Shown: one piece after another, positions 22,773 through 34,387 of the stretch
Position numbering within the stretch: position 1 is the stretch's first letter
Layout: the number at the start of each line of letters is the position of its first letter
Assembly: GCA_016930515.1 (NCBI GenBank)
Contig: JAFGGO010000045.1
Span: 1-47,605 of the forward strand
DNA length: 47,605 nucleotides
From: Promethearchaeota archaeon
Lineage (GTDB): Archaea > Asgardarchaeota > Lokiarchaeia > Sigyniarchaeales > SOKP01
Direction of reading: 5' to 3'
Notes under the pieces: generated by a model
The model's input: only the letters and a program-made list of their open reading frames with translations
Database searches by the model: none
What the model was told of the DNA's origin: nothing
Made by a program: the position numbers and the translations under genes

Positions 22773-23806
22773 TCAATCCAAGTTGTCGTATCTATAGGTA
22801 TCTGGAAAGGATAGCACAAAGTCTTCTCCAAATGCCATTGAAGGAGTTAAACTGCCTACTGGTTTGGATTTAAGGATTCTCTCCACGCACATAACTCCAC
22901 TTATAAAAGTAAAACGATAGGGTTCTATGGTTTCTAACCAAGCTTCTGCTTTATCACCTTCCTTGTTCATTGCACACACCCAGATGTGTGATCTCCCTTC
23001 GTTCCTAACTTTTTCTCCTGGACCATATACATTTTTATCAATCCACTCAAAAATTTGATCTTTTGGAGATTTGCTCGTGTTTGTTACTGATGATTGACTG
23101 GTTTTTAAAACGGAGGAAAGATGTTTTGAAAAAGGCATATATGTCGTGATGTTGGGGATACCTGTGGTTTTATAAGCAGTAGATAAATCCCCCCATGATA
23201 CTGGAAATACCACTCGTAGAAACGAATTTTTTTCAAGGGATCGTAATCTGATTTTTTGACAAGTAACCCATTTCTTCTGAAAAAAGTTCCGTTTGAAAGT
23301 GTCTCCACGGTAGTTTTAAGCGTACCCCTGCTAATTTCGTTCATGCCAGAAATTGCAATGTCCAAACGATCTGAATCCTGCACTTTTTTGCTAATATAAC
23401 TTGCCATACAGTCGGTTGGCAGTACATCAAAACCAACCCCTGAAATGATCGCAATTGAAGCGTCCTTTGCATCTTGATGATATTGAAAATTTTGCTCAAA
23501 AACGGATATTTCTCCAGTTATATCTATATAATTCGTACCGACTTTGAGGTAAGCTTCAACTAAAGCATTGCTCGTCTGCTTAAATGGACCCGCAGCGTTT
23601 AAAACTATCTCAAATTCTTTTAATAAATCTTTTAGCTTTTGCTGGTCGTTTAGATCAAATACCAGATATTCTAATCCTAATGATTTTGATATTTCTGTAA
23701 CCTTATCTTGAGATCGTCCAGCCAAGACAGGTTCATAACCCCTTTTATGAGCCTCTTGTGCTATTAACGAACCCGAATAACCATAAGCACCATAATTCAT
23801 CCACAT
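22773..23806 (-). pseudogene. Frameshifted saccharopine-dehydrogenase-like (trans-acting enoyl reductase family) oxidoreductase
   Basis: The N-half (YGAYGYSG, NAAGPF, YIDITGE, GFDVLPTD, SRGT) and the C-half (SWGDLSTAY, GSLTPSMAFG) lie in different frames; switch near 23215. Confidence 0.8.
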
Positions 23807-23870: not shown

Positions 23871-24107
23871 TTATTTTACAGCTTCAAAATAAATATACCA
23901 TTGTTCGTCGTCCTCGAGATACTCCGTTCCCAAGTGCTTGTGTTTTGTTTTAGCCAAGTCTCTCGGGACAGAATCACTTGCAGGCTTGTAATCCGTTATT
24001 ACCTTTAACACTTGTCCTGGCCTCATGGTTCTTAATTGCTTTTTAGTTTTCAAAGCAGGAACCGGACAAACCAAACCACATACATTTAATTCTTGGTCAT
24101 ATTTCAT
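23871..24107 (-). CDS. tusA: TusA/SirA-family sulfur carrier
   Basis: LNVCGLVCPVP (CPxP), GQVLKVITD. Confidence 0.9.
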   Translation of the reverse strand: MKYDQELNVCGLVCPVPALKTKKQLRTMRPGQVLKVITDYKPASDSVPRDLAKTKHKHLGTEYLEDDEQWYIYFEAVK

Positions 24108-24132: not shown

Positions 24133-26604
24133 TTAATCGCATATAGCGCTAAAGACTGGTTCTTCCAAAGCTGGCGCGATTTTCATATTTAGCTTTTGTT
24201 GTTGTACTAGTCTTAGAGCCTCATATCTAACTTTTTTAGGTTCCATTGCAAGATTTTCCGATATTTTCGTTATTGTTAATGGTCCTTCAAGATTCACATA
24301 ATCAAGTATCTTCTGTCGGGGTGTTGTTTCAAATCTTAATAATTCACGCTTTGATTTGATATTTATTGCACTTTGGATCTTTTCCTCGTTGATGCTTCCA
24401 ATCTCAAATAAACCTTTCTTGATAGCTGTTTCAACAATTTCTTTCCCCTTTTCCGTCCAAGCTATAACCGTCGTATATCCTTTTTTAGAACCAATATCTC
24501 CTGCTGCAAGATCGGCATGAGAGGCAGGAAAATCCTGGCAATGAGAGCAGTAATTATTGCAATTTAAACATCGTTGTGCCTCCGAAATCGCTCTTTCTTC
24601 GTTGAACATTCCTTCTATTTGCTTAAAATTGTTAAGAAAATCCTCTGAGACGGGTTCTTGGTGTTCTGGTTTAGGTGCCCTAAATTTCGGGATCCTTTTA
24701 GGACCATACGAAAATAGTTTTGATTGCTTCACGCGCCCTTTCTCGAGATCTTTCCCTTTTAAATATCGATCAATAGAGAGAGCAGCTTCTTTTGCTTGAG
24801 CAACTGCCGAAATGACAACGCCTTTTGAATTCTGGATCATGTCTCCAGCAGCAAAAATTCCGGGCACATTCGATTCAAAGGTAATTTCGTTCACAACTAA
24901 TCGCCCCCTGTCTTTTTGGAGCTTATTATCTGTTGCTGCATCCAATTCCGAGAAATCCACTGTTTGACCTATCGCTTGAATTAAAACATCAATGTTTAGC
25001 TTGAACTCTGAGTTTTCAATTACGATTGGTTGGGGTCTCCCAGACGAGTCCGGCTTCCCAAGGTCCATTTCTACACATTCTAACTCGCTGCAACACCCAT
25101 TTTCATCCCCGATAATACAAACGGGGTTTGTAAGAAATTTGAATTCAATGTTTTCCCTTTTAACCATTTCTATCTCTTCGTCTGATGCGGGCATTTGATC
25201 CTCAGATCGGCGATATAAGATAATGACTTTTTTAGCTCCAAGCCTTACCGCCGTTCTTGCCGAATCCATCGCCACATCTCCTCCACCAACGACTCCAACG
25301 ATTTTATCTTTGACTAGGTTGCTCATAATTTTCTTGCTTTCTTCTGATTTTTTTACCATTTTTAAGAAATCAACGCCCTCAAAGACGTTTTTCAGGTCAT
25401 TTCCCTCAATGCTCATGCTAAAACCGTTTTGTAAACCAATTCCAACAAAAAAGGCTTTATAACCTTCCTTTTTCAGATCCGAAATGGTCAATTTAGAACC
25501 TATGGTTGTATTAGTGAGAATTTCCACACCTGCATTCTTTATAACCTGAATGTCATGCTCTAAAAATTCCTGCGTTAGTCGAAACTCAGGTACTCCATAT
25601 CTCAACATTCCACCTATTCGTGATGACTTCTCAAATATTGTTGGTGAATATCCCATTTTAGCAAGAAAGTATGCTGCTGTTAATCCTGAAGCACCTGATC
25701 CAATGATCGCTATTTTCTCTCCTTTATTTTTTGAGGATTTATCATATTTGGTAGTATTATTAATTTCCCAGTTGGCAGCGTTTTTTTTTAATTCTCGAAT
25801 AGCAATAGGGCTCTCAACACCCATGAGCGTGCAATTATGTTCGCATTCGTTAGTACATATTTGACCACAAACGGAAGGTAAGGGATTATTTTTACGGATT
25901 AGATCCATTGCATCTTTAAATTTTGATTGACGGATCAGGTCAATATAACCTCTTGCGTCAACATCAGCAGGACATCCACTACAACAAGGTGAACACATTA
26001 TACCTTGATCTGTCTTAAAAGATCGCATTCCAGCGTTACAAAATAAGCCAATTTTGAGAATATCTTTATTCAATAGATTTTGAATATTAGAAACACCTCT
26101 CATTTCGCACGGCACTCCAACGATCCCGATTTTTTCAAGAGGATTTTCAAGAGTTTGAATCAATTTTGATAAGACATTCGGACGACCATAAATTGAACCT
26201 GCGGATTGAATTACATCTTCGACTTTAGAAGTAGAAATCGCTCTTGGGATTTCATTATCGTTTTGAACCAAGACCACATTGGTCAATTCATTTTTTTCTA
26301 ATAATTTTTTAACTATTGTCGTCACGAAACCTCCGCTTGAGGCATTTTTTTGAATTTCAGGATCCTTCGTTCTTAAGGAGTATATTCCCTTTGGGATCCT
26401 TGGTTCAAATTTTTTTTGTATTACTTGTGGACAACTATTATAGCATTTTCCGCACTCCACCCCTTCTCTGTCTAAAACGCAGTAATCCTTCAACTCTGGC
26501 TTGAAACCCTCAAATTTGATGTGCTTGCACAAGCCTTCACATAAACCACACCCTTGACAGAGCCCTACATCAATGATCTTGCTTTTTAACATTTGAAAAC
26601 TCAT
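24133..26604 (-). CDS. Fusion protein: ferredoxin + FrhB/FdhB-like flavoprotein with inserted GltD/NfnB(SudA)-like domain + C-terminal wHTH
   Basis: CQGCGLC/CGKCYNSCP; FrhB motifs GGFVT, VGVPC, IGLFC and later CSHCQDF..ADLAAG..GYTTVIAWTEKG; GltD motifs PCCSGCP, CGQIC..CEHNC, GSGASG, GGMLRYGVP, GGGDVAMD, YRR, FAAGD, RCLNC. Confidence 0.88.
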   Translation of the reverse strand: MSFQMLKSKIIDVGLCQGCGLCEGLCKHIKFEGFKPELKDYCVLDREGVECGKCYNSCPQVIQKKFEPRIPKGIYSLRTKDPEIQKNASSGGFVTTIVKKLLEKNELTNVVLVQNDNEIPRAISTSKVEDVIQSAGSIYGRPNVLSKLIQTLENPLEKIGIVGVPCEMRGVSNIQNLLNKDILKIGLFCNAGMRSFKTDQGIMCSPCCSGCPADVDARGYIDLIRQSKFKDAMDLIRKNNPLPSVCGQICTNECEHNCTLMGVESPIAIRELKKNAANWEINNTTKYDKSSKNKGEKIAIIGSGASGLTAAYFLAKMGYSPTIFEKSSRIGGMLRYGVPEFRLTQEFLEHDIQVIKNAGVEILTNTTIGSKLTISDLKKEGYKAFFVGIGLQNGFSMSIEGNDLKNVFEGVDFLKMVKKSEESKKIMSNLVKDKIVGVVGGGDVAMDSARTAVRLGAKKVIILYRRSEDQMPASDEEIEMVKRENIEFKFLTNPVCIIGDENGCCSELECVEMDLGKPDSSGRPQPIVIENSEFKLNIDVLIQAIGQTVDFSELDAATDNKLQKDRGRLVVNEITFESNVPGIFAAGDMIQNSKGVVISAVAQAKEAALSIDRYLKGKDLEKGRVKQSKLFSYGPKRIPKFRAPKPEHQEPVSEDFLNNFKQIEGMFNEERAISEAQRCLNCNNYCSHCQDFPASHADLAAGDIGSKKGYTTVIAWTEKGKEIVETAIKKGLFEIGSINEEKIQSAINIKSKRELLRFETTPRQKILDYVNLEGPLTITKISENLAMEPKKVRYEALRLVQQQKLNMKIAPALEEPVFSAICD

Positions 26605-26608
26605 AAAA

Positions 26609-27847
26609 TTATTCCTCCTTAATTTTTATTTTTGTGATTACGCCTTTTGAATCGATTCCAAATTCTATTCTTCCATTTTTATAATTTCCTTCGAAAATCT
26701 CAAATGATTGAGATTTATACTCTTCAAAATCATTCAATTCTCCAACAGGCGTTTTAAAACCACCAAAAAATACATTAGACAAGTTCATATTACCCGCAAT
26801 CCTCCTTATTTCGCTTGTTATATTTTCGTATTTATTAGCGTCCTGATCTTTCATTGCGGTTTTAAGTTGATTTTCTAAGTTCTTAAGGTCTTTTCTATAT
26901 TGAACAGTTTTTTCACTCACATCAATTCCAGTTCCTTTTTCATAAGCTTCAATTAAACTCAATGTCAGGGATATGGCGTTTTCTCCACCTAAAAGACCAG
27001 TTATTAATGGAGCTTCTTCGATTAACCTGTCAACGAAAATATCTTCTAAGACACTCCCCTTTGAAGGAATTTTTCCTTTTGGTAGTCCAGATGTTGGGAG
27101 CGTGAATCGGAAGAAATTTCCGACCACATCTGGGAGACTTTCAGTTACATCGTCATCTTCGTCGGATAATTTATCTGTTGCCCCGTATTTTGAAGCTTCG
27201 GTTGCAACTTCTACATTCCCCATAAGCGTTCCAAACATCCCAAGCATTCTAATGCCCGAGCGCGGAACCATCGGCTTGCACCCTCGACATTGTGTTCCAT
27301 AATCTATACATCTTTCCTTGCATTCAGTCGAAACATATCCATTGCAGAGAAAACCTTGATCGTTAAAGCACATTTCTTCGTCTTCAAATGGATCGATTTG
27401 TCTCTTGACTTCGTCCAGAAATTCACAAGTGGATTTTCGCTTGCAAGATTGACACAATGCTTTCAATTTAGGCTTCTCTTCTCCCTTAATTTCTGATTTT
27501 AATTCCTCGACTTCGGCAAGACATCCATTTATCTTTGTAGTACCTTCAAAATATTTATCTATTGGTGTTATGCTCCATCCTTTTTGATTTGCAAGTCCAA
27601 AAACGCCTCCTGTTGTGGTACAATCTCCATATGCAATAATTTGCTTAGCGCTCGAACCAATCTTCGATATTTTTTCTTTATCTTCTGGCAGCAAATATCC
27701 ACACACGATGGCCACATCAATTTTTTCTTCTTTCCAATTTCTCGGATTTTGAACGAGTTCTAATTGTATCGACGAATCTTTTTTCAATAAGAGAGTTTCA
27801 TTGAAACATTTCTTGCAACCGTTAAATTGAAACGCTTTAACTTTCAT
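26609..27847 (-). CDS. MvhG/VhuG-like Fe-S subunit fused to a vestigial NiFe large-subunit (MvhA-like) segment
   Basis: GCKKC, YGDCTTTGG, NGC, LCQSC, CFNDQGFLCNG..C...C......CRGC; C-terminal region IEEAPLITG...GGFKTP; ATG 27847 overlaps the mvhD stop. Confidence 0.8.
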   Translation of the reverse strand: MKVKAFQFNGCKKCFNETLLLKKDSSIQLELVQNPRNWKEEKIDVAIVCGYLLPEDKEKISKIGSSAKQIIAYGDCTTTGGVFGLANQKGWSITPIDKYFEGTTKINGCLAEVEELKSEIKGEEKPKLKALCQSCKRKSTCEFLDEVKRQIDPFEDEEMCFNDQGFLCNGYVSTECKERCIDYGTQCRGCKPMVPRSGIRMLGMFGTLMGNVEVATEASKYGATDKLSDEDDDVTESLPDVVGNFFRFTLPTSGLPKGKIPSKGSVLEDIFVDRLIEEAPLITGLLGGENAISLTLSLIEAYEKGTGIDVSEKTVQYRKDLKNLENQLKTAMKDQDANKYENITSEIRRIAGNMNLSNVFFGGFKTPVGELNDFEEYKSQSFEIFEGNYKNGRIEFGIDSKGVITKIKIKEE

Positions 27848-28280
27848 TTTCAAACTTTCCTCCGTCATTAATTGCTGCACACAATCGTTCCACGATATCA
27901 TCAAAATCTCCAACCGCCGTTTCACCTTCTGCGGCTCTTGAAGTATATTGATTCACGAATTGATCGCTATACCCTAATTCCTTAAAAAGTTTTTTCATTA
28001 TTTTTATCCTGCGCATTGCTATGAAATTCCCATTAAAAAAATGACAGGCGCCTAAGCAACACCCCACGCAAGCAACGGAATCTGCACCATTATTTAGCGC
28101 ATCCATTATCTGTATTGGACCAACTTGACCCGTACATTGAACTCTTACGATTCTGATCGCAGGATCGTATTCCATCCTTCCAACCCCTGCAGTATTTGCA
28201 GAGCCTTGACCACATTCATTGCACATAAATACGACAATATTTTCATATCCTTCACATTTGGCAGCTTCACATTCATTCAT
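27837..28280 (-). CDS. mvhD: MvhD/FlpD [2Fe-2S] subunit
   Basis: FMCNEC, IRIVRVQCTG, GADSV..VGCCLGACHF.NGN; SD GGAGGTG upstream of ATG 28280. Confidence 0.92.
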   Translation of the reverse strand: MNECEAAKCEGYENIVVFMCNECGQGSANTAGVGRMEYDPAIRIVRVQCTGQVGPIQIMDALNNGADSVACVGCCLGACHFFNGNFIAMRRIKIMKKLFKELGYSDQFVNQYTSRAAEGETAVGDFDDIVERLCAAINDGGKFENES

Positions 28281-30294
28281 TACAAACAACACCTCCACCA
28301 GATATTGGAATGATCTCGTAAAGCAGTTGGTCGTCGCTAAAATTAAGCAATTGTATGGCACCAACAGGACACGCAGGCATACACATCCCACATGATTTAC
28401 AAGCAACTTCGTTAATCACGGGTCTTCCATTATCGTTCCATTTAATTGCAGACGGATTACATGCTGTAATACACATTCCACAATCTACGCATAATTCATA
28501 ATCGATTGAAGGAATTAGCATTTCCTTTTCGATGTATCCTTTTACTAAATGCTGAGAGGCAAGAGCAGCAGCATTGCCAGCATGTGCCACGGATTCGGAT
28601 ATATCCTTGGGACCTTGAATGGCACCTGCCAAGTAAATCCCGCCTTTGCTACTTGCCGTTGGATTCATCTTGATGTGAAATTCTTTAAAGAATCCTTCTT
28701 TTGAGCGTAGAATTTGAAGTTTTGATCCAAGCGGCCCTATTCCTTGAGGAGGAACCATGGCTGCCGACAAAACAACTAAATCAGCTTTAAGTCTTAATGG
28801 GATTTGGCTTAAAGTATCCTCTACGATGACATGTAAGTCACCAGATATAGGATCCTTTAATATCTCAGATGGTCGACCTCTTATAAATCGCACTCCTTTT
28901 TCTTGGGCACTCATGTAATATTCTTCAAAGTTTAATCCTGGTGTCCGCATATCAATATAACAAATTGTTACATCAGCATCGGGATACATGTCTTTTACGA
29001 TTCCGGCGTTTTTAGTAGCGAATTTACAACAAACTCCAGTGCAATATTTATTTCCAACCTGTTCGTTTCGACTTCCAACACATTGAATCATTACAATCTT
29101 TTTCGGAATTTTTCCGTCCGATGGTCTCATTACCTCGCTTCCCGTCATAGTAGTGGGTCCAAGCATTCTTTCCAATTGTAACTGAGTAATGACATCATCG
29201 TATCCTACTTTTCCATAATGATAAGCTTCGATCTCGCTCGGATCGTACTCTTCGTATCCAACGGCTACGACTATTGATCCAACCTTGAAACTTTTTATTT
29301 CTGGTTTCTCGGAGAAATCAATAGCTTGAACCGGACAAATATTAATGCAAGTATTGCATTCAATGCAATCCTTTTTGGAACGAACAAAAGTTGAAGGAAT
29401 GGCCTGGGGATAAGCCTTATATATCGCAGTGCGCGTTGACATTCCCTTGTCCCATTCTGATAGTACTTCCACAGGACAATTAGCAGCACATTCTCCACAT
29501 GAAGTACAGTTATCCTTCACATATCGTGGTTTAATTTCGATTTCAACTTCAAAATTGCCCATCGAACCTTCAACACTCTTGATTTGAGAATTTGTAAAAA
29601 GCTGTATTAGAGGATGATTAGCAACGCCGTTTGTTAACGGGGAGATGCTACATTGTGGACATTCGTTCGTTGGAAATGTTTTGTTCAACCTCGTCATATG
29701 GCCCCCTATTGTCGACTCCCTCTCGACTAAATAGACGGGAATTCCTAATTCGGCCATATCGTAAGCAGCTCGTAGACCAGCAATTCCAGCACCTACGACC
29801 AAAGCCGCTTTTGTTGTTGGAATTTTTTTCGTCTCTACTTCTTTTAACTTTCGAGCTCGATTTATTCCTGCCTCAACCATTTTCATTGCCTTGTTGGTTG
29901 CCTTATCTTTTTCTTTATTATGAACCCAACTGCAAAACTCTCTAATATTTACTTGTTGATGCAAGTGCTTGTTTAAACCCATTTCTTCGATGGCTTTGGC
30001 AAAAGTTCTTCCGTGTTGATTTTTTGAACAGGAAGCAACCACCGATTTATTCACGCCTTTTTCTTTTATGGCTTCTTTTAATAATTCAACTCCAGGTTTG
30101 GAACACATGAACATATAATGCTTTGCTTCCACTACATTAGGTAAAGTTCCTGCATATTCAGCAACCTTCTCAACATCAACAGTTCCTGCAATATTATGAC
30201 CACAATGACATACAAACACACCAATCCTAGGTTCTTCTTCACCTTCTGCTTGTTTTTCGATTTTTGCTTTTATCTCATTTTTTTTAACAACCAT
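28273..30294 (-). CDS. hdrA: Heterodisulfide reductase subunit A
   Basis: RIGVFVCHCG.NIAG, NIREFCSWVH, GAGIAG, KTFPTNEC..C, IQCVGSR...YCTGVCC, GPKDI, C-terminal ferredoxin motifs. Confidence 0.97.
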   Translation of the reverse strand: MVVKKNEIKAKIEKQAEGEEEPRIGVFVCHCGHNIAGTVDVEKVAEYAGTLPNVVEAKHYMFMCSKPGVELLKEAIKEKGVNKSVVASCSKNQHGRTFAKAIEEMGLNKHLHQQVNIREFCSWVHNKEKDKATNKAMKMVEAGINRARKLKEVETKKIPTTKAALVVGAGIAGLRAAYDMAELGIPVYLVERESTIGGHMTRLNKTFPTNECPQCSISPLTNGVANHPLIQLFTNSQIKSVEGSMGNFEVEIEIKPRYVKDNCTSCGECAANCPVEVLSEWDKGMSTRTAIYKAYPQAIPSTFVRSKKDCIECNTCINICPVQAIDFSEKPEIKSFKVGSIVVAVGYEEYDPSEIEAYHYGKVGYDDVITQLQLERMLGPTTMTGSEVMRPSDGKIPKKIVMIQCVGSRNEQVGNKYCTGVCCKFATKNAGIVKDMYPDADVTICYIDMRTPGLNFEEYYMSAQEKGVRFIRGRPSEILKDPISGDLHVIVEDTLSQIPLRLKADLVVLSAAMVPPQGIGPLGSKLQILRSKEGFFKEFHIKMNPTASSKGGIYLAGAIQGPKDISESVAHAGNAAALASQHLVKGYIEKEMLIPSIDYELCVDCGMCITACNPSAIKWNDNGRPVINEVACKSCGMCMPACPVGAIQLLNFSDDQLLYEIIPISGGGVVCNE

Positions 30295-31215
30295 CTAAAT
30301 TGCCTCCTCCTCCTTTTCACGCATGTCTGTAAGTTTGAAATTGTAATTTTTTCCCATCATCTGATATTGGAGTCCAATAAAATCGACATCCATCCCCATA
30401 CAATACGCAAGAAGTTGAGAAAGATGGATTACAGGATAATCGTATGAACACCCTTTATTCTTGTTTAAATAATCTTGTCCAGTCTCGAATTGAAGGTGGC
30501 AGAACGGACATATGTCTAATATGAAATCGGGTTTAACTTCGTCAATATTTTTCATTTTTTCTCCAAAAATTGTCATGCTAGATGTTCCATCAAAAGCCTT
30601 TACTCCGCCACCTGCTCCGCAACACGTGAGCTGTTCTTTAAACCTAACAGATTGAACGCCGAGTGCTTCTATGAAGTCTTCAATTATCGTTGGGCTTTCA
30701 GAGCTTTCGATCTCCCGTATCCTCGTTGGTTTGAGGAAATGACACCCATAATGAACTGCTGCCTTAGCGTTGACTTTTCTTACGATAGCATCTTCAATAC
30801 CCCAAGGTCCTATATCGAAACCCAGAACTTCTGCTATGTGTCTAACTTCAATTGTCCCTTGAAACTCATAATCCCCCAATAAGGTTAACTTTTCATTAAC
30901 TATTTTTTTTGCTGATTCGTCTTGCTTGAGGTGTTTATTAACTTCTTGCAAGGTTCCAAAACATCCATTACACACGGTCAAAATATCGGCATCCATTTTT
31001 TCCGCTATGCATATATTTCTTGCAGCGTGTACCATCCAATCAACCTTATTAAACGATCTAAATACCCCTGGAGCGGGACAACACGCTGCTCTTTCCATAT
31101 CCAACAATTCATAACCAAGTTTTTCCATGACGAATTTGGTTGCTTTTTCTATTTGAGGATATCTATTAGGCATAATACATCCTAAAAAGAACGCAAAAGT
31201 CATTTCTCTTGCCAT
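30295..31215 (-). CDS. hdrB: Heterodisulfide reductase subunit B
   Basis: FLGCIMPNRYP, CCPAPG, CNGC, HYGCH, CCGAGGG, CPFCHLQF. Confidence 0.97.
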   Translation of the reverse strand: MAREMTFAFFLGCIMPNRYPQIEKATKFVMEKLGYELLDMERAACCPAPGVFRSFNKVDWMVHAARNICIAEKMDADILTVCNGCFGTLQEVNKHLKQDESAKKIVNEKLTLLGDYEFQGTIEVRHIAEVLGFDIGPWGIEDAIVRKVNAKAAVHYGCHFLKPTRIREIESSESPTIIEDFIEALGVQSVRFKEQLTCCGAGGGVKAFDGTSSMTIFGEKMKNIDEVKPDFILDICPFCHLQFETGQDYLNKNKGCSYDYPVIHLSQLLAYCMGMDVDFIGLQYQMMGKNYNFKLTDMREKEEEAI

Positions 31216-31782
31216 TTATTTATCTTCCTCCTTAATTTTCTTTTTTTCAGGTACTAAATCAAATAAATTTTTTGCGATGTTTTTTAAATCATCGTCTTTT
31301 TCGTCTTTATACTTATATGCCGTAGGAGGAAGTTCTTCCAAACCTAATTCGACCCTTTGTTTTTTAATTGCATCGTTAATGGGGACTGCGTGTCCAGTAT
31401 TTTTCAAGTAACCTACTACCGCCCTATGATTCGGACTTATATTTCCTAGTTTTGTAGCGTAATTTCTTAGTTCTATTATGACATCGGTGGGGCGTACATC
31501 TCTAGGACATCGCTCGTAGCATTGATAACAGGTGGTACATAACCAAATATCTGGATCTTCTAATACACTGAGATCCCCCAAAACAAGTCTCCTTATTATC
31601 GAACGCGTTTTCAGAGCTGTCCATCTGCCACTTTCACAACTGGCGGTACAAGTTCCACATTGAATGCAAGACCAAATATTCGTCTTTCGCTCTATATCCT
31701 TGAAATATTGAGGGTCGAAATCAGAATCAGTCTTATATTGCCTATTTTTGGATTTATTCTCGGTTTCTGATATTCTTACCAA
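31216..31782 (-). CDS. hdrC: Heterodisulfide reductase subunit C
   Basis: CIQCGTCTASC, WLCTTCYQCYERCPR, TGHAVP; the start may be ATA at 31773. Confidence 0.96.
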   Translation of the reverse strand: MVRISETENKSKNRQYKTDSDFDPQYFKDIERKTNIWSCIQCGTCTASCESGRWTALKTRSIIRRLVLGDLSVLEDPDIWLCTTCYQCYERCPRDVRPTDVIIELRNYATKLGNISPNHRAVVGYLKNTGHAVPINDAIKKQRVELGLEELPPTAYKYKDEKDDDLKNIAKNLFDLVPEKKKIKEEDK

Positions 31783-31822: not shown

Positions 31823-32239
31823 TTACAACGATACGATCCTTCCGCCTTCGCTCATTTCGAGAAAGGAGGCGGCACCAACAGGATCTTCTACGAAGTCGAA
31901 TAGTTGCTCTCTTTTAATTCCCATGAGATCCATCGTCATTTGGCAGGGGAATAACCTCATACTTCTATTATCGACAGCCTCCTTGATCATGCCCCAAGGG
32001 TCTTCAATACCAAACTTTTTCAACTTCTTTAAGAACATCTTTGCTGCCATTCCCTTCATTGGAGCGGGCATTCCGGCCACTTTTGGTTTGAATTTCTTTT
32101 TTAACAGAAATAATCCCCAAAACGTAAAAAAGAAATTCATCTTGACATCCATGGCATCGCCTGTGGTTCCCAAGATCATCATCATTGCAAATTTTTCAAA
32201 AGATTTGTCTTTTACAATAAAATTAATTGTTTCAACCAT
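31823..32239 (-). CDS. DsrE2-like sulfurtransferase
   Basis: FFTFWGL, PCQMTMDLMG, VGAASFL; ATG 32239 follows GATGTGA. Confidence 0.88.
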   Translation of the reverse strand: MVETINFIVKDKSFEKFAMMMILGTTGDAMDVKMNFFFTFWGLFLLKKKFKPKVAGMPAPMKGMAAKMFLKKLKKFGIEDPWGMIKEAVDNRSMRLFPCQMTMDLMGIKREQLFDFVEDPVGAASFLEMSEGGRIVSL

Positions 32240-32296
32240 ATTTTTCACATCTTCTTTTTTTCTTTGTCTGTTTTTATATTTTAAAAAATCTTTAAT

Positions 32297-32638
32297 TTAC
32301 ATCCAGGATACTATTTTTTCCGAGTTTTCTAACACATCTACTAGATCTGTGTATTCAATTGGCTCGACTTTATCGAATAAATTATCCGCGCTAATTCCTC
32401 GAGCCTTCAAGTCTGGACTCATTGCGAAAAATTTCACGGGTAAGTCGAATAGGTTTTTGATTATGTCATTGAATTTTCTTTTGGAAAAACTAAGAACGAC
32501 GGAATCGTGAATCAAGACCATCCCGATTTTTGAACCGCTTGCAATTTGCTCATTTATTAAAGGAATTATTGTATTCAGGTGATTTAAAGCGTCAGAACCA
32601 TAACCATACAGATAGGTGATATTTATTTTTTCTACCAT
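32297..32638 (-). CDS. DsrH/TusB-like protein
   Basis: VLIHDSV, DLKARGI, IEYTDLVD...IVSW. Confidence 0.85.
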   Translation of the reverse strand: MVEKINITYLYGYGSDALNHLNTIIPLINEQIASGSKIGMVLIHDSVVLSFSKRKFNDIIKNLFDLPVKFFAMSPDLKARGISADNLFDKVEPIEYTDLVDVLENSEKIVSWM

Positions 32639-32654
32639 TTTTCATATTCACCCC

Positions 32655-33023
32655 TTACATGTAAAAACAGGAACTTGCATCATCGATGAATCCTTTCAAG
32701 TCTCTCATGCTAATCACGCTTAAGTTTTCGTAATCAATTAAATCCACTTTTGACAATCCCACCTCTTCTAAAGCCGTATCCAATACTTTCAGCTCCAAAT
32801 CCGATAAGTCCGCCATCTCTAAGGTTTCTTCATAAGAATCCCCCCCTGTGGCCCTTGGATCTGCTTGTTTGTTCAACATATACACAGAATCTCCTGTAAA
32901 TACAATTTTGCAATCCAGTTCTTCTCCAAGACCCATAAAACCAGAACCCAGTCTGATAACTTCGATAGCTGAATTCTTTCCAATTGGGGATTTATTACAG
33001 ATAATTATTACGGATTCAACCAT
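32655..33023 (-). CDS. DsrF/TusC-like protein
   Basis: KSPIG...EVIRL, VFTGDSVY; position between dsrE and dsrH; ATG 33023 follows GGAGGTTGA. Confidence 0.8.
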   Translation of the reverse strand: MVESVIIICNKSPIGKNSAIEVIRLGSGFMGLGEELDCKIVFTGDSVYMLNKQADPRATGGDSYEETLEMADLSDLELKVLDTALEEVGLSKVDLIDYENLSVISMRDLKGFIDDASSCFYM

Positions 33024-33028
33024 TTTTT

Positions 33029-33397
33029 TCAACCTCCTACCCCAAACACAATCAATTTATCCGATTCGTAAGCCCAGTTGGATAATTCTCCGAGCCCTTC
33101 GTCTCTTCCCGTATAAATGAAGCTATCCTCTTTTATGCCAGTCAATCCCACCCAAGTACTGCATCCTGCGATTGGAATATTGTATTTTTCGCTGAATTCT
33201 TCCAATCTCTGCGGTATGTTTCTCGTGGACGCCCCTACATTAATGTCCTTTTTAATATTATATACGCCGCTTCCAAACGTGAAGATCCCCTTAACCAAGT
33301 GACCTTTTTCTATTAGTGCCTTGCATAGATTTATTATTGTATCAGTCGCTTCAAATTTATAGGGTTCCGTGCAGAGTAAAAATGTGTAAGTCGACAT
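33029..33397 (-). CDS. DsrE/TusD-like sulfurtransferase
   Basis: TEPY, GIFTFGSGVY, active-site-position Cys in AGCST, GLGELS...SDKLIVF. Confidence 0.85.
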   Translation of the reverse strand: MSTYTFLLCTEPYKFEATDTIINLCKALIEKGHLVKGIFTFGSGVYNIKKDINVGASTRNIPQRLEEFSEKYNIPIAGCSTWVGLTGIKEDSFIYTGRDEGLGELSNWAYESDKLIVFGVGG

Positions 33398-33424
33398 TTA
33401 TTGCACCTCTTTTTTTAGGATCCT

Positions 33425-33649
33425 TCAGGCTTTTTTTATTATAAACGTGATAATTTCGCCATCTTGATTCGTTTCAACTATTTCATCGCCTGTTTTTTTG
33501 ATGAGAGCGGGAATGTCTTTTAAAGCTCCTATGTCGTCTGCAATCAATTCAATCGTCTGCCCCGTGGTCATATTTTTTAACTCTTTTTTCGTCAATAATA
33601 CGGGCATTGGACATTTCTTACCTTTCGCATTAATAATTTTTTCAGCCAT
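33425..33649 (-). CDS. tusA: TusA/SirA-family sulfur carrier
   Basis: INAKGKKCPMP (CPxP), ADD.GA..DIP. Confidence 0.92.
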   Translation of the reverse strand: MAEKIINAKGKKCPMPVLLTKKELKNMTTGQTIELIADDIGALKDIPALIKKTGDEIVETNQDGEIITFIIKKA

Positions 33650-33696
33650 ATTATTCAACTTTTACGTTTTTTTGTTTCATTTTTTTAGTTTTTTAT

Positions 33697-33913: not shown

Positions 33914-34387
33914 ATGACTAAACCAATGGATTTTATAGACATTGACGATAAGGACAAAAAAATTTTAGATATCCTGCAACACGATGCTAAAACATCACTA
34001 AGAGACATGGCCAAAGAAACGGGACTTAGCACGACTGCGATAAGAGCCAGATTAAACAAGCTTAAAGAAGAGGAAGTGATAAAAAGTCAAATTACCTTGA
34101 TAGACTGCAGTAAATTAGGCTATCGGGAAATGGTGCTGGCTTCTTTAAGGGTTAATTCTTCTCAACCTTTAGATCAAATCAAAAAAAAAATTGACGAGAT
34201 GGAAAAAATCAAATATGCATACATTATTACAGGAGAATATCCACTTTTTCTCATGTTCAAGTGCCTCGACCACGGTGATTCCATAAAACAGATTGAAGCA
34301 TTGAGAAATCTGCCAGGTGTTGAGGAGGTAAAAACGCAAATCGTCCTCGATCGAATCAAAGAAGATCATTCAATAATAATTCCCTAA
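33914..34387 (+). CDS. Lrp/AsnC-family transcriptional regulator
   Basis: IDDKDKKILDILQHDAK HTH, ITGEYP RAM domain. Confidence 0.95.
   Translation: MTKPMDFIDIDDKDKKILDILQHDAKTSLRDMAKETGLSTTAIRARLNKLKEEEVIKSQITLIDCSKLGYREMVLASLRVNSSQPLDQIKKKIDEMEKIKYAYIITGEYPLFLMFKCLDHGDSIKQIEALRNLPGVEEVKTQIVLDRIKEDHSIIIP

What the first reader, a model, noticed from the sequence alone, without database searches (positions are those of the whole stretch)
26609..27055. MvhG fused to a vestigial, nickel-less hydrogenase large subunit
Seen: after a complete MvhG-like Cys set, the protein continues LEDIFVDRLIEEAPLITGLLGGENAISLTLSLIEAYEKGTGIDVSEKT...EIRRIAGNMNLSNVFFGGFKTP. From recall of the family, these match group 3 large-subunit segments 'FEKFxxGRPxEEAPRIxxRICGIC..H' and 'GGxxIHP....PGG'. 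The Ni-ligating RICGxC is replaced by GLLGGE and the region has no Cys at all. The final GRIEFGIDSKGVITKIKI resembles the large subunit's N-terminal beta-hairpin, possibly permuted. Inference: a ~150-aa structural cap left from MvhA turns a hydrogenase into a pure electron wire.
Basis: partly seen in the sequence, partly recalled or inferred. Interest (0 to 1): 0.75.

Follow-up and report, generated by a model that had tools for sequence, protein, structure and literature searches.

The report
Nickel-free hydrogenase relic fused to MvhG
In this Loki-type Asgard archaeon the iron-sulfur "small subunit" of a hydrogenase carries, fused to its end, a conserved 150-residue cysteine-free core of the hydrogen-splitting "large subunit". 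The heterodisulfide-reductase operon around it therefore looks like a hydrogenase operon but almost certainly takes its electrons from a flavoprotein, not from H2.

Summary
The minus-strand gene 26609-27847 encodes a complete MvhG-type [NiFe]-hydrogenase small subunit with 12 conserved Cys, enough for three [4Fe-4S] clusters. About 151 further residues follow, with no Cys, His or Trp.

Folded alone (pLDDT 94), this tail matches only [NiFe] large subunits and their complex-I 49-kDa homologues. Z is 9.6-15.5 with 145-151 of 151 residues aligned; the next unrelated fold scores Z 5.5. Profile searches place its first 60 residues on the RxCGxC (L1) helices: FrhA is the top PDB hit at E 0.008, and hhalign gives P 2.4e-4. 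The order is colinear with MvhA, not permuted.

All four Ni-Fe cysteines, the N-terminal hairpin, about 170 internal residues and the DPCxxC end are missing. The tail is as conserved as the MvhG domain.

The fusion occurs in 80 of 400 Asgard genomes, including MK-D1 and L. ossiferum, and in Methermicoccus. In every locus with both flanks it lies between mvhD and an frhB-type gene, and no real large subunit lies nearby.

Best reading: an Fe-S wire, capped by the relic, linking FrhB(/GltD) to MvhD-HdrABC. This parallels Elp-Hdr. The function is inferred, not shown.

This scan has already reported the same fusion in other Asgard genomes.

The parts
26609..27847 (-). Fused gene mvhG::relic-mvhA. 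It is 412 aa from the ATG at 27847; the mechanical ORF runs to the GTG at 27925.
   Evidence: ORF list and translation. Homologues of 410-436 aa start at M.VK.FQFNGC.
27065..27847 (-). Complete MvhG-type small-subunit domain with 12 conserved Cys for proximal, medial and distal [4Fe-4S] clusters.
   Evidence: Pfam PF01058. phmmer to 5odc_E and 9sw2_E reaches their C-termini. Foldseek of the whole model hits small subunits, 5odi_E at E 6e-11. The Cys columns are invariant or nearly so.
26612..27064 (-). 151-aa relic of the [NiFe] large subunit, free of Cys and His. It keeps the four-helix bundle and a three-stranded sheet.
   Evidence: AF2 pLDDT 94. VIA Z 13-15.5 to FrhA, MvhA and SHI alpha with 148-151 residues aligned. 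Foldseek ranks 1-29 are nearly all large subunits or complex-I homologues. No Pfam hit.
26873..27052 (-). Former L1 helix pair (tail residues 5-64), equivalent to MvhA 37-97 and FrhA 44-104.
   Evidence: hhalign P 2.4e-4 and P 0.003. hmmsearch against PDB puts FrhA first at E 0.008.
26984..26998 (-). GLLGG, standing where the Ni-ligating RICGxC motif lies. Only the Gly of CG.C is kept, and it is invariant.
   Evidence: Alignments; invariant G295.
26750..26833 (-). Helix plus the AGNMNLSN..GGF turn (tail residues 78-105). It is the colinear counterpart of the GG..HP...GG segment (FrhA 144-173).
   Evidence: Sub-threshold second block. G91, L95, S96, N97 and G102 are invariant. Colinear structural ranges.
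26612..26731 (-). Terminal three-stranded sheet (tail residues 112-151), the counterpart of the EAPRG..H hairpin region (MvhA 344-384). It is not the N-terminal hairpin.
   Evidence: The best hhalign placement against the whole MvhA profile is 344-384 (P 0.07; P 0.006 against that region alone). The N-terminal hairpin gives P 0.11. Chain ranges end near the C-terminus.
27837..28406 (-). mvhD, the [2Fe-2S] connector. It overlaps the fused gene's start by 11 nt, and its real start is probably near 28280.
   Evidence: Pfam FlpD E 2e-32. It lies upstream of the fused gene in 59 of 61 loci.
28273..31782 (-). hdrA (28273-30294), hdrB (30295-31215) and hdrC (31216-31782).
   Evidence: Pfam and NCBIfam; conserved synteny.
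24133..26604 (-). frhB with a nested gltD-type NAD(P)H flavoprotein module, an N-terminal ferredoxin domain and a C-terminal wHTH. It starts 4 nt after the fused gene's stop codon and is the proposed electron-entry subunit.
   Evidence: Pfam FrhB_FdhB_N and FrhB_FdhB_C flank Fer4_20 and Pyr_redox_2. It lies downstream of the fused gene in 57 of 61 loci.
31823..33658 (-). Sulfur-carrier genes at the head of the operon: tusA (33425-33658), dsrE (33029-33397), a dsrE/F-like gene (32655-33032), dsrH (32297-32638) and a dsrE2-like gene (31823-32248). A second tusA lies at 23871-24107.
   Evidence: Pfam; ORF list.

Best explanation
The gene descends from an mvhD-mvhG-mvhA hydrogenase operon. Deletions in place removed the mvhG stop codon and the first ~35 codons of mvhA. 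They also removed ~170 internal codons and the last ~50 codons, which include DPCxxC. The product is a full three-cluster MvhG fused to the bare structural core of its former catalytic partner: a four-helix bundle plus a three-stranded sheet. None of the four Ni-Fe cysteines remains, so it cannot bind the NiFe(CO)(CN)2 centre and cannot turn over H2. Shown here: the homology and architecture, the loss of the metal ligands, purifying conservation, and strict synteny. Inferred: the relic keeps the surface that the small subunit needs for folding and shields the proximal cluster. [quoted passage not shown] The flavoprotein would be the F420H2 entry point, or the NAD(P)H entry point in Loki through the inserted GltD module. 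HdrBC would reduce a disulfide or persulfide substrate, perhaps one delivered by the TusA/DsrE proteins of the operon, while ferredoxin is reduced. The complex would work like ElpABC-HdrABC.
For: Architecture: MvhG homology runs to MvhG's natural end and all 12 Cys are kept. Relic fold: pLDDT 94; VIA Z 13.1 to MvhA 5odc_F (150 aligned, rmsd 3.0), 14.4 to FrhA and 15.5 to SHI alpha. In the second look at Foldseek's 750 highest-ranked chains, 148 chains score Z >= 8 and every listed row is of this superfamily; in the search of 48,161 representative chains the next unrelated fold scores Z 5.5. Foldseek ranks 1-29 are nearly all the same superfamily. Sequence: three independent profile runs put tail 5-67 on the L1 helices, and the last 40 residues fall on the L4 hairpin. 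Loss of site: 0 Cys and 0 His, with none conserved in 45 homologues. Constraint: mean pairwise identity is 0.60 in the tail against 0.56 in the MvhG N-domain; the ORF is 410-436 aa with no stops in 80 genomes. Context: 55 of 61 loci read mvhD - fused gene - frhB, the other six are cut by a contig end, and none of the 61 has a true MvhA within 6 kb. The same operon occurs in Methermicoccus shengliensis. In that organism an frhB1-'frhG'-mvhD-hdrA2B2 cluster is listed as expressed and is read as an F420-dependent Hdr (PMC8630106 and its supplement). The canonical order hdrA/mvhD-mvhG-mvhA is present elsewhere in this genome. Precedent: ElpA is a cofactor-less truncated FdhA in a solved F420H2-dependent Elp-Hdr complex (PMC12350162).
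Against: No biochemical or structural data exist for this protein. Single-sequence searches see nothing: BLASTP of the tail against the genome's own MvhA gives E 8.6, and Pfam gives none. Each profile hit is modest on its own (E 0.003-0.008), and Foldseek E-values are 0.1-1. The fold evidence rests on an AF2 model. I could not inspect coordinates, so whether the relic sits on MvhG where MvhA would sit is untested; only the pTM of 0.84 for the whole model suggests a fixed packing. Where FrhB docks, at the proximal or the distal end, is unknown. The most conserved stretch of the protein, the MvhG C-terminal 67 residues (mean identity 0.76), is modelled with pLDDT below 50, so an important interface is unexplained.
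Confidence: 0.72

Rival explanations
1. New site rather than a passive cap. As in complex I, where loss of the NiFe centre created the quinone pocket, the relic's conserved polar residues next to the proximal cluster could form a binding site. The ligand could be a small redox substrate or a carrier protein such as TusA or DsrE.
For: Fourteen columns of the tail are invariant over 45 sequences, many of them polar (R, E, E, E, E, R, S, N). The tail is as constrained as the catalytically relevant MvhG domain. The operon always carries sulfur-carrier genes. Complex-I NuoD matches the relic nearly as well as hydrogenases do (Z 11-13).
Against: There is no Cys or His to handle sulfur or metals. Only 150 residues remain, and the C-terminal segment that closes the pocket in hydrogenases is gone. 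No pocket analysis was possible. Conservation is equally well explained by an interface with MvhG and with partner subunits.
Confidence: 0.14
2. Still a hydrogenase small subunit. The fused protein would pair in trans with a full-length large subunit encoded elsewhere, and the tail would be an accessory domain.
For: The same genomes encode true large subunits with RICGxC and DPCxSC motifs. The MvhG C-terminal segment that accompanies MvhA in canonical enzymes is retained and highly conserved.
Against: Each true large subunit examined has its own small-subunit gene beside it. None of 61 loci has one within 6 kb. The relic is homologous to the core of the large subunit and would be expected to occupy the same docking surface. 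The M. shengliensis paper, whose 'FrhG' is most likely this protein (matched by gene order only), does not mention hydrogenases in its main text.
Confidence: 0.07
3. Convergence. The tail would be an unrelated helical-bundle domain that merely resembles the large-subunit core.
For: Four-helix bundles are common, and the aligner warns that helical models can reach Z ~13 by arrangement alone. Sequence identity to large subunits is only 10-18%.
Against: Generic bundles reach only Z 5.5 and cover 75-97 residues. Large subunits cover 145-151 of 151 residues, including the beta sheet, in the same order. Three profile comparisons hit the same colinear L1 position. The domain sits exactly where mvhA follows mvhG in canonical operons.
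Confidence: 0.04
4. Decaying pseudogene remnant with no function.
For: It has lost two thirds of the ancestral subunit and every catalytic residue.
Against: It is full length with no stop codon in 80 Asgard genomes, and full length also in the Methermicoccus locus examined. It has 14 invariant columns, is as conserved as the MvhG N-domain and folds with pLDDT 94. The protein listed as 'FrhG' in M. shengliensis, most likely this fusion, carries protein-level values.
Confidence: 0.02

Closest known systems
MvhAGD-HdrABC / Vhu-Hdr, the group 3c [NiFe]-hydrogenase:heterodisulfide reductase of methanogens (PDB 5ODC, 9SW2)
   Same: The gene order hdrCBA-mvhD-mvhG-(mvhA) is the same. MvhG is homologous over its whole length and has the same 12 Cys. 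MvhD and HdrABC are orthologous. The relic superposes on MvhA at Z 13.1.
   Different: MvhA is reduced from about 430-470 to 151 residues, is fused to MvhG, and lacks both CxxC pairs, so no NiFe site and no H2 chemistry are expected. An FrhB-type flavoprotein is always encoded downstream.
ElpABC-HdrABC of Methanothermobacter marburgensis (Nomura et al. 2025, PMC12350162)
   Same: The logic is the same. The catalytic subunit of the donor enzyme is truncated and has no cofactor, the FrhB/FdhB-type subunit becomes the electron entry point (F420H2), and an MvhD homologue connects to HdrA.
   Different: The stub in Elp derives from formate dehydrogenase FdhA, not from a hydrogenase large subunit. 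It is a separate polypeptide, and no small-subunit-type three-cluster wire is present.
'FrhBG-HdrA2B2C2' of Methermicoccus shengliensis (Kurth et al. 2021, PMC8630106)
   Same: This is very probably the same protein family and operon. An M. shengliensis-named protein (P0297) has the tail at 41% identity (E 3e-30) and lies in hdrC-B-A-mvhD-fusion-frhB. That order matches the paper's Amam_01017-01021. The paper proposes a ferredoxin-dependent F420:heterodisulfide oxidoreductase.
   Different: The paper calls the gene FrhG and does not note the extra domain or its origin in the text I could search. The Loki version adds a GltD NAD(P)H module and sulfur-carrier genes, and it occurs in non-methanogens without CoM/CoB. 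I did not see the paper's own protein sequence, so the match rests on gene order.
Complex I NuoB/NuoD (PSST/49-kDa) and other NiFe-less hydrogenase derivatives (Mbs, Ehr-type)
   Same: These are large-subunit homologues that lost the Ni-Fe cysteines but kept the four-helix-bundle core next to the proximal-type cluster. The relic aligns to them at Z 9.6-13.4 over 146-151 residues.
   Different: Those keep a full-size subunit of about 370-600 aa that forms a new quinone or sulfur site in a membrane complex, and the small-subunit homologue keeps one cluster. Here the large subunit is cut to its core, the small subunit keeps all three clusters, the two are fused, and the complex is soluble and Hdr-linked.
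Hybrid [FeFe]/[NiFe] hydrogenases with a HydA-HyhS fusion (Greening et al. 2024, PMC11216029)
   Same: A group 3 small-subunit domain is fused to another hydrogenase module in archaea.
   Different: There the small domain is fused to an active [FeFe] catalytic domain and still pairs with an intact [NiFe] large subunit. Nothing is vestigial.

Membership tests
[NiFe]-hydrogenase small subunit, group 3c (MvhG/VhuG) | Flavodoxin-like N-domain with four Cys for the proximal [4Fe-4S] cluster (CxxC ... GxC ... GC) | tested here: met
   C37, C40, C102 and C135 are conserved. Pfam PF01058 E 3.5e-11. The fourth motif reads GCLAE in the Loki clade and GCPP in the divergent clades.
[NiFe]-hydrogenase small subunit, group 3c (MvhG/VhuG) | Eight further Cys for the medial and distal clusters, and homology over the full length of MvhG | tested here: met
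   C158, C161, C186, C194, C202, C206, C213 and C216 are invariant or nearly so. phmmer to 9sw2_E gives E 7e-16, reaching residue 304 of 308. Foldseek to 5odi_E gives E 6e-11. The NCBIfam VhuG score of 45 bits is far below the equivalog cut-off of 450.
[NiFe]-hydrogenase small subunit, group 3c (MvhG/VhuG) | A cognate full-length catalytic large subunit encoded beside it | tested here: not met
   No MvhA-like ORF lies within 6 kb in any of 61 loci. In this window the next gene is frhB::gltD.
[NiFe]-hydrogenase large subunit (Pfam NiFeSe_Hases, PF00374) | N-terminal RxCGxC (L1) pair of Ni-Fe ligands | tested here: not met
   The aligned position reads GLLGG. The tail has 0 Cys, and no column has Cys at 10% or more.
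[NiFe]-hydrogenase large subunit (Pfam NiFeSe_Hases, PF00374) | C-terminal DPCxxC (L5) pair and the protease-processed C-terminus | tested here: not met
   The protein ends at the equivalent of MvhA ~384 of 433. Chain ranges stop at 377-402 in chains of 419-447 residues.
[NiFe]-hydrogenase large subunit (Pfam NiFeSe_Hases, PF00374) | A match to the family model above its threshold | tested here: not met
   No PF00374 hit even at E <= 10. Only profile-level similarity to the L1 region was found.
[NiFe]-hydrogenase large subunit (Pfam NiFeSe_Hases, PF00374) | Core fold: a four-helix bundle plus the adjoining beta sheet, in the same order | tested here: met
   VIA Z 13.1-15.5, 147-151 of 151 residues aligned, rmsd 2.4-3.0. 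It is homologous as a domain but is not a functional member.
Complex I 49-kDa / NuoD-type NiFe-less homologues | Full-size subunit forming a quinone (or sulfur) cavity with the NuoB-type subunit in a membrane complex | tested here: not met
   Only 151 residues remain. No membrane subunit genes lie in the operon. The shared core fold matches at Z 9.6-13.4.
Elp-type F420H2-dependent donor module of Hdr | FrhB/FdhB-type flavoprotein plus an MvhD homologue plus a cofactor-less truncated catalytic subunit, encoded with hdrABC | tested here: met
   Pfam finds FrhB_N, FrhB_C and FlpD; synteny. This holds at the level of architecture only.
Elp-type F420H2-dependent donor module of Hdr | The truncated subunit is homologous to FdhA (ElpA) | tested here: not met
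   The stub is a hydrogenase large-subunit core, not a molybdopterin-enzyme fragment. It therefore works like Elp but is not a member.
Elp-type F420H2-dependent donor module of Hdr | F420H2- (or NAD(P)H-) dependent heterodisulfide and ferredoxin reduction, and physical complex formation | not testable with these tools
   This needs enzyme assays and purification.

The most novel reading that the evidence does not exclude
The relic is not just a cap. Trimming the large subunit to its core exposes the proximal cluster, and the conserved polar surface of the relic forms a new docking or substrate site. MvhG would then become a two-ended wire: FrhB's ferredoxin domain, or a TusA/DsrE sulfur carrier, at the proximal end and MvhD at the distal end. 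That would be an independent, soluble replay of the step by which a hydrogenase became complex I.
Probability: 0.15. Interest if true: 0.8.

Novelty: new variant of a known kind. Interest (0 to 1): 0.6.

Why it matters
First, annotation. These genes are labelled 'F420-reducing hydrogenase gamma subunit', 'NuoB family' or 'FrhG'. Asgard metabolism models, and the hydrogen-syntrophy ideas about eukaryote origins, lean on MvhADG-HdrABC counts. This operon is present in MK-D1 and L. ossiferum and should not be counted as a hydrogenase. In MK-D1 the only true large subunit lies about 3 Mb away, in a different gene cluster.

Second, evolution. The fusion is a clear intermediate showing how a catalytic subunit can shrink to its structural core while its Fe-S partner is kept. 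This parallels ElpA/FdhA and NuoD.

Third, mechanism. It gives a defined, nickel-independent electron-input module for HdrABC in non-methanogens. Cultured organisms carry it, and the sulfur-carrier genes encoded beside it suggest a candidate substrate.

Tried and rejected
- **Pfam and NCBIfam on the tail.** No meaningful hit, even at E <= 10.
- **BLASTP of the tail against this genome's own MvhA.** Nothing (E 8.6).
- **phmmer of the tail against PDB.** It found only the few residues that overlap the MvhG C-terminus.
- **phmmer of the tail against 1.8 billion representative proteins.** Twenty hits; 18 belong to the same fused family or are fragments of it, and two weak multi-stretch hits to longer proteins (841 and 647 aa) look spurious. 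There was no full-length large subunit and no intermediate form. The short hits come from contigs of 774-1484 bp, so they are fragments and not stand-alone genes.
- **ESM Atlas.** No usable hit.
- **Global hhalign, and the second and third blocks on their own.** Weak. Only the L1 block is individually significant.
- **Permuted N-terminal hairpin.** Rejected in favour of a colinear L4 hairpin.
- **Literature.** Five searches and seven papers read. None describes the extra domain as a large-subunit remnant. This is not proof of absence, because most subscription journals are not in the library.
- **The look-up of encoding contigs.** Contexts were obtained with the genome search, the fetch from genomes and the search for related loci instead.
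Full report
**What is at the locus**

The window is a 35%-GC piece of a Promethearchaeota (Loki-type Asgard) genome; this is shown by the source names of the protein relatives. On the minus strand a tight operon reads tusA, dsrE, dsrE/F-like, dsrH, dsrE2-like, hdrC, hdrB, hdrA, mvhD, the gene in question, an frhB gene with a nested gltD module, and a second tusA.

The gene in question is ORF 26609-27925 (438 aa from a GTG). Homologues start at M.VK.FQFNGC, so the real start is most likely the ATG at 27847, giving 412 aa. That start overlaps the mvhD stop by 11 nt. The frhB::gltD gene begins 4 nt after the fused gene's stop codon.

**Observation check**

The quoted residues are there. The first ~260 residues from M27 are a complete MvhG:
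- Pfam Oxidored_q6 matches.
- phmmer aligns the protein with the solved MvhG/VhuG chains 5odc_E and 9sw2_E right up to their C-termini, at query residue 287.
- Foldseek of the whole-protein model hits small subunits only.
- Twelve cysteines are invariant or nearly so across 16 and 45 homologues. Four are in the proximal-cluster pattern and eight are for the medial and distal clusters.

The last 151 residues (window 26612-27064) have no Cys, His or Trp. No column of this region carries Cys in 10% or more of 45 homologues.

**Is the tail a large-subunit remnant?**

Single-sequence methods are blind here:
- Pfam and NCBIfam find nothing.
- BLASTP against this genome's own MvhA gives E 8.6.
- phmmer against 1.8 billion representatives finds only the same fused family.

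Profile methods do see the relationship:
- A tail profile against an Asgard MvhA profile gives its single hit at tail 7-64 on MvhA 39-96. This is the helix pair carrying RICGxC, with P 2.4e-4. Smaller alignments give the same region at P 0.003.
- A tail HMM against all 177,635 distinct PDB sequences ranks FrhA first (E 0.008; tail 7-67 on FrhA 44-104). A sub-threshold second block places AGNMNLSN..GGF on the GG..HP..GG segment (144-173). HyhL appears lower, at the same L1 position.

Structure settles the question:
- The tail folds alone with pLDDT 94 and pTM 0.88, without templates.
- Foldseek ranks 1-29 are nearly all [NiFe] large subunits or their complex-I, Mbh and Hyc homologues. E-values are only 0.1-1, but probabilities reach 0.99.
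- The Foldseek-independent aligner, run against 48,161 representative chains, puts 15 members of that superfamily on top. Z is 9.6-14.4, with 145-151 of 151 residues aligned at rmsd 2.5-3.3. It then drops to Z 5.5 for generic helical bundles that cover only 75-97 residues.
- A second look at Foldseek's list gives Z 15.5 to P. furiosus SHI alpha, 14.6 to FrhA and 13.1 to MvhA 5odc_F, with 148 chains at Z >= 8.

Taken together with the position of the domain, I regard homology as established. The domain sits exactly where mvhA follows mvhG in canonical operons. This genome's own hdrA/mvhD-mvhG-mvhA cluster, with RICGLC and DPCISC, shows that order.

**What was kept and what was lost**

The structural ranges run from chain residues ~36-62 up to residues near the C-terminus, for example 5odc_F 36-398 and 6qgt_A 38-402. 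The mapping is therefore colinear.

The last 47 residues, compared with the whole MvhA profile, find their best placement on MvhA 344-384, the EAPRG..H hairpin. This fits better than the N-terminal hairpin does.

The relic thus corresponds to MvhA with four deletions:
- residues 1 to ~36, the RIEGH hairpin;
- about 25 residues within 97-143;
- about 175 to 343;
- about 385 to the end, including DPCxxC.

What remains is the four-helix bundle and three-stranded sheet shared by all members of the superfamily, complex I included. At the Ni-binding CxxC only the glycine survives (GLLGG).

**Is it functional?**

- The tail is as conserved as the MvhG N-domain. Mean pairwise identity is 0.60 against 0.56, and 14 columns are invariant.
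- It is found in 80 of 400 Asgard genomes, always as one 410-436-aa frame without stops. Most are in the window's own family. A divergent family shares only 31-43% identity in the tail.
- Named records include Promethearchaeum syntrophicum MK-D1, Lokiarchaeum ossiferum and Harpocratesius repetitus.
- It also occurs outside Asgard. Proteins named Methermicoccaceae and Methermicoccus shengliensis carry the tail at 41% identity (E 3e-30), in a 58%-GC locus with the same operon.
- Short 'stand-alone tails' in the databases come from contigs of about 1 kb and are fragments.

**Context**

- In 55 of 61 loci the order is mvhD, fused gene, frhB-type gene. The other six are cut by a contig end. None has a true MvhA within 6 kb.
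- The partner always begins with a ferredoxin-like domain and ends with a wHTH.
- In Loki the partner is an FrhB with an inserted GltD NAD(P)H module. In the divergent Asgard family and in Methermicoccus it is a plain FrhB of ~350-394 aa. In Harpocratesius it has shrunk to the ferredoxin domain plus wHTH, 142 aa.
- True large subunits exist elsewhere in the same genomes, and each one examined has its own small subunit beside it.

**How it most likely works**

Shown here: an intact three-cluster small subunit, a metal-ligand-free but constrained core of the large subunit fused to it, and obligate genetic linkage to mvhD-hdrABC upstream and an FrhB-type flavoprotein downstream.

Inferred:
- The protein no longer handles H2.
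- Electrons enter at the flavoprotein, from F420H2, or from NAD(P)H via GltD in Loki.
- The relic preserves the surface that stabilises the small subunit and shields its proximal cluster.

This is the same logic as the solved ElpABC-HdrABC complex. There a truncated, cofactor-less FdhA accompanies the F420H2-oxidising FdhB homologue (PMC12350162).

It also fits the 'FrhBG-HdrA2B2C2' complex that Kurth et al. proposed for M. shengliensis. Their gene order, FrhB1-FrhG-MvhD-HdrA2-HdrB2, matches the locus I recovered. Their supplementary table lists expression values for these genes, and what appear to be protein-level values for FrhB1 and FrhG (PMC8630106). I checked the paper, the supplement and the synteny myself, but I did not see the paper's own protein sequence.

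**What remains open**

- I could not inspect coordinates. The whole-protein pTM of 0.84 suggests a fixed packing of relic on MvhG, but whether it copies the MvhA-MvhG interface is untested.
- Whether FrhB docks at the proximal end (a true through-wire) or at the distal end is unknown.
- The MvhG C-terminal 67 residues are the most conserved part of the protein (mean identity 0.76) yet are modelled with pLDDT below 50. This suggests an interface with a partner that is missing from the model.

**Novelty**

I found no paper that recognises the domain. The operon has been noted once, under the name FrhBG-Hdr. The library lacks most subscription journals, so this is not proof of absence. I class the finding as a new variant of a known kind: a hydrogenase-derived, nickel-free redox module.

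This scan has already reported the same fusion in several other Asgard genomes. Those notes agree with what I found but were not used as evidence.

Noticed in passing
L020:9139-9588 (Lokiarchaeum ossiferum, CP104013.1): The L. ossiferum orthologue reads GCCGG where the window has GLLGG, at the former RICGxC site. The two adjacent Cys are offset by 1-2 positions from the ancestral ligands, and I saw them in no other sequence examined.
   Followed up: no
L017:8365-8793 (Harpocratesius repetitus, JAIZWK010000001.1): In this lineage the downstream partner is only 142 aa. It keeps the N-terminal 2x[4Fe-4S] ferredoxin domain and the C-terminal wHTH, with the FrhB and GltD parts deleted. This suggests that the ferredoxin domain is the part that docks to the fused protein.
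   Followed up: partly
window 27125-27325 (residues 201-267 of the 419-aa form P0002): The C-terminal stretch of the MvhG domain (RSGIRMLGMFGTLMGN...VGNFFRFTLP) is the most conserved part of the protein (mean pairwise identity 0.76). AF2 nevertheless models it with pLDDT below 50. It is probably an interface with a subunit absent from the model.
   Followed up: partly
window 24133-26604: An 823-aa protein in which a complete GltD/NfnB-type module (Fer4_20 plus Pyr_redox_2, residues ~200-620) is nested between the FrhB_N and FrhB_C domains. It has an N-terminal ferredoxin domain and a C-terminal wHTH-like end. Relatives outside the Loki clade lack the insertion.
   Followed up: partly
L003 / L004 (G000 contigs C74 and C150, first 1.6 kb): A second hydrogenase in this genome has a 437-aa small subunit with a duplicated Cys-rich middle region, followed by a large subunit with RICGIC that runs off the contig end. 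The same 1.6 kb appears at the ends of two contigs, which suggests an assembly repeat or a duplication. MK-D1 has a similar 453-aa small subunit in the order small-hdrC-hdrB-large (L083).
   Followed up: partly
L084:7265-11865 (G000 contig C104): The genome's canonical group 3c hydrogenase is encoded as an 848-aa HdrA-like/MvhD fusion followed by MvhG (253 aa) and MvhA (433 aa). No hdrBC was detected by BLAST in the flanks I retrieved.
   Followed up: no
window 22773-23806 (-): Two overlapping ORFs in different frames (23105-23806, 233 aa; 22773-23213, 146 aa) look like the two halves of one saccharopine-dehydrogenase-like gene. This could be a frameshift, a sequencing error or a pseudogene.
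   Followed up: no
window 33914-34387 (+): An Lrp/AsnC-type regulator gene (judged from its sequence only; no family search was run on it) is divergently transcribed from the head of the tusA-dsrEFH-hdr operon.
   Followed up: no
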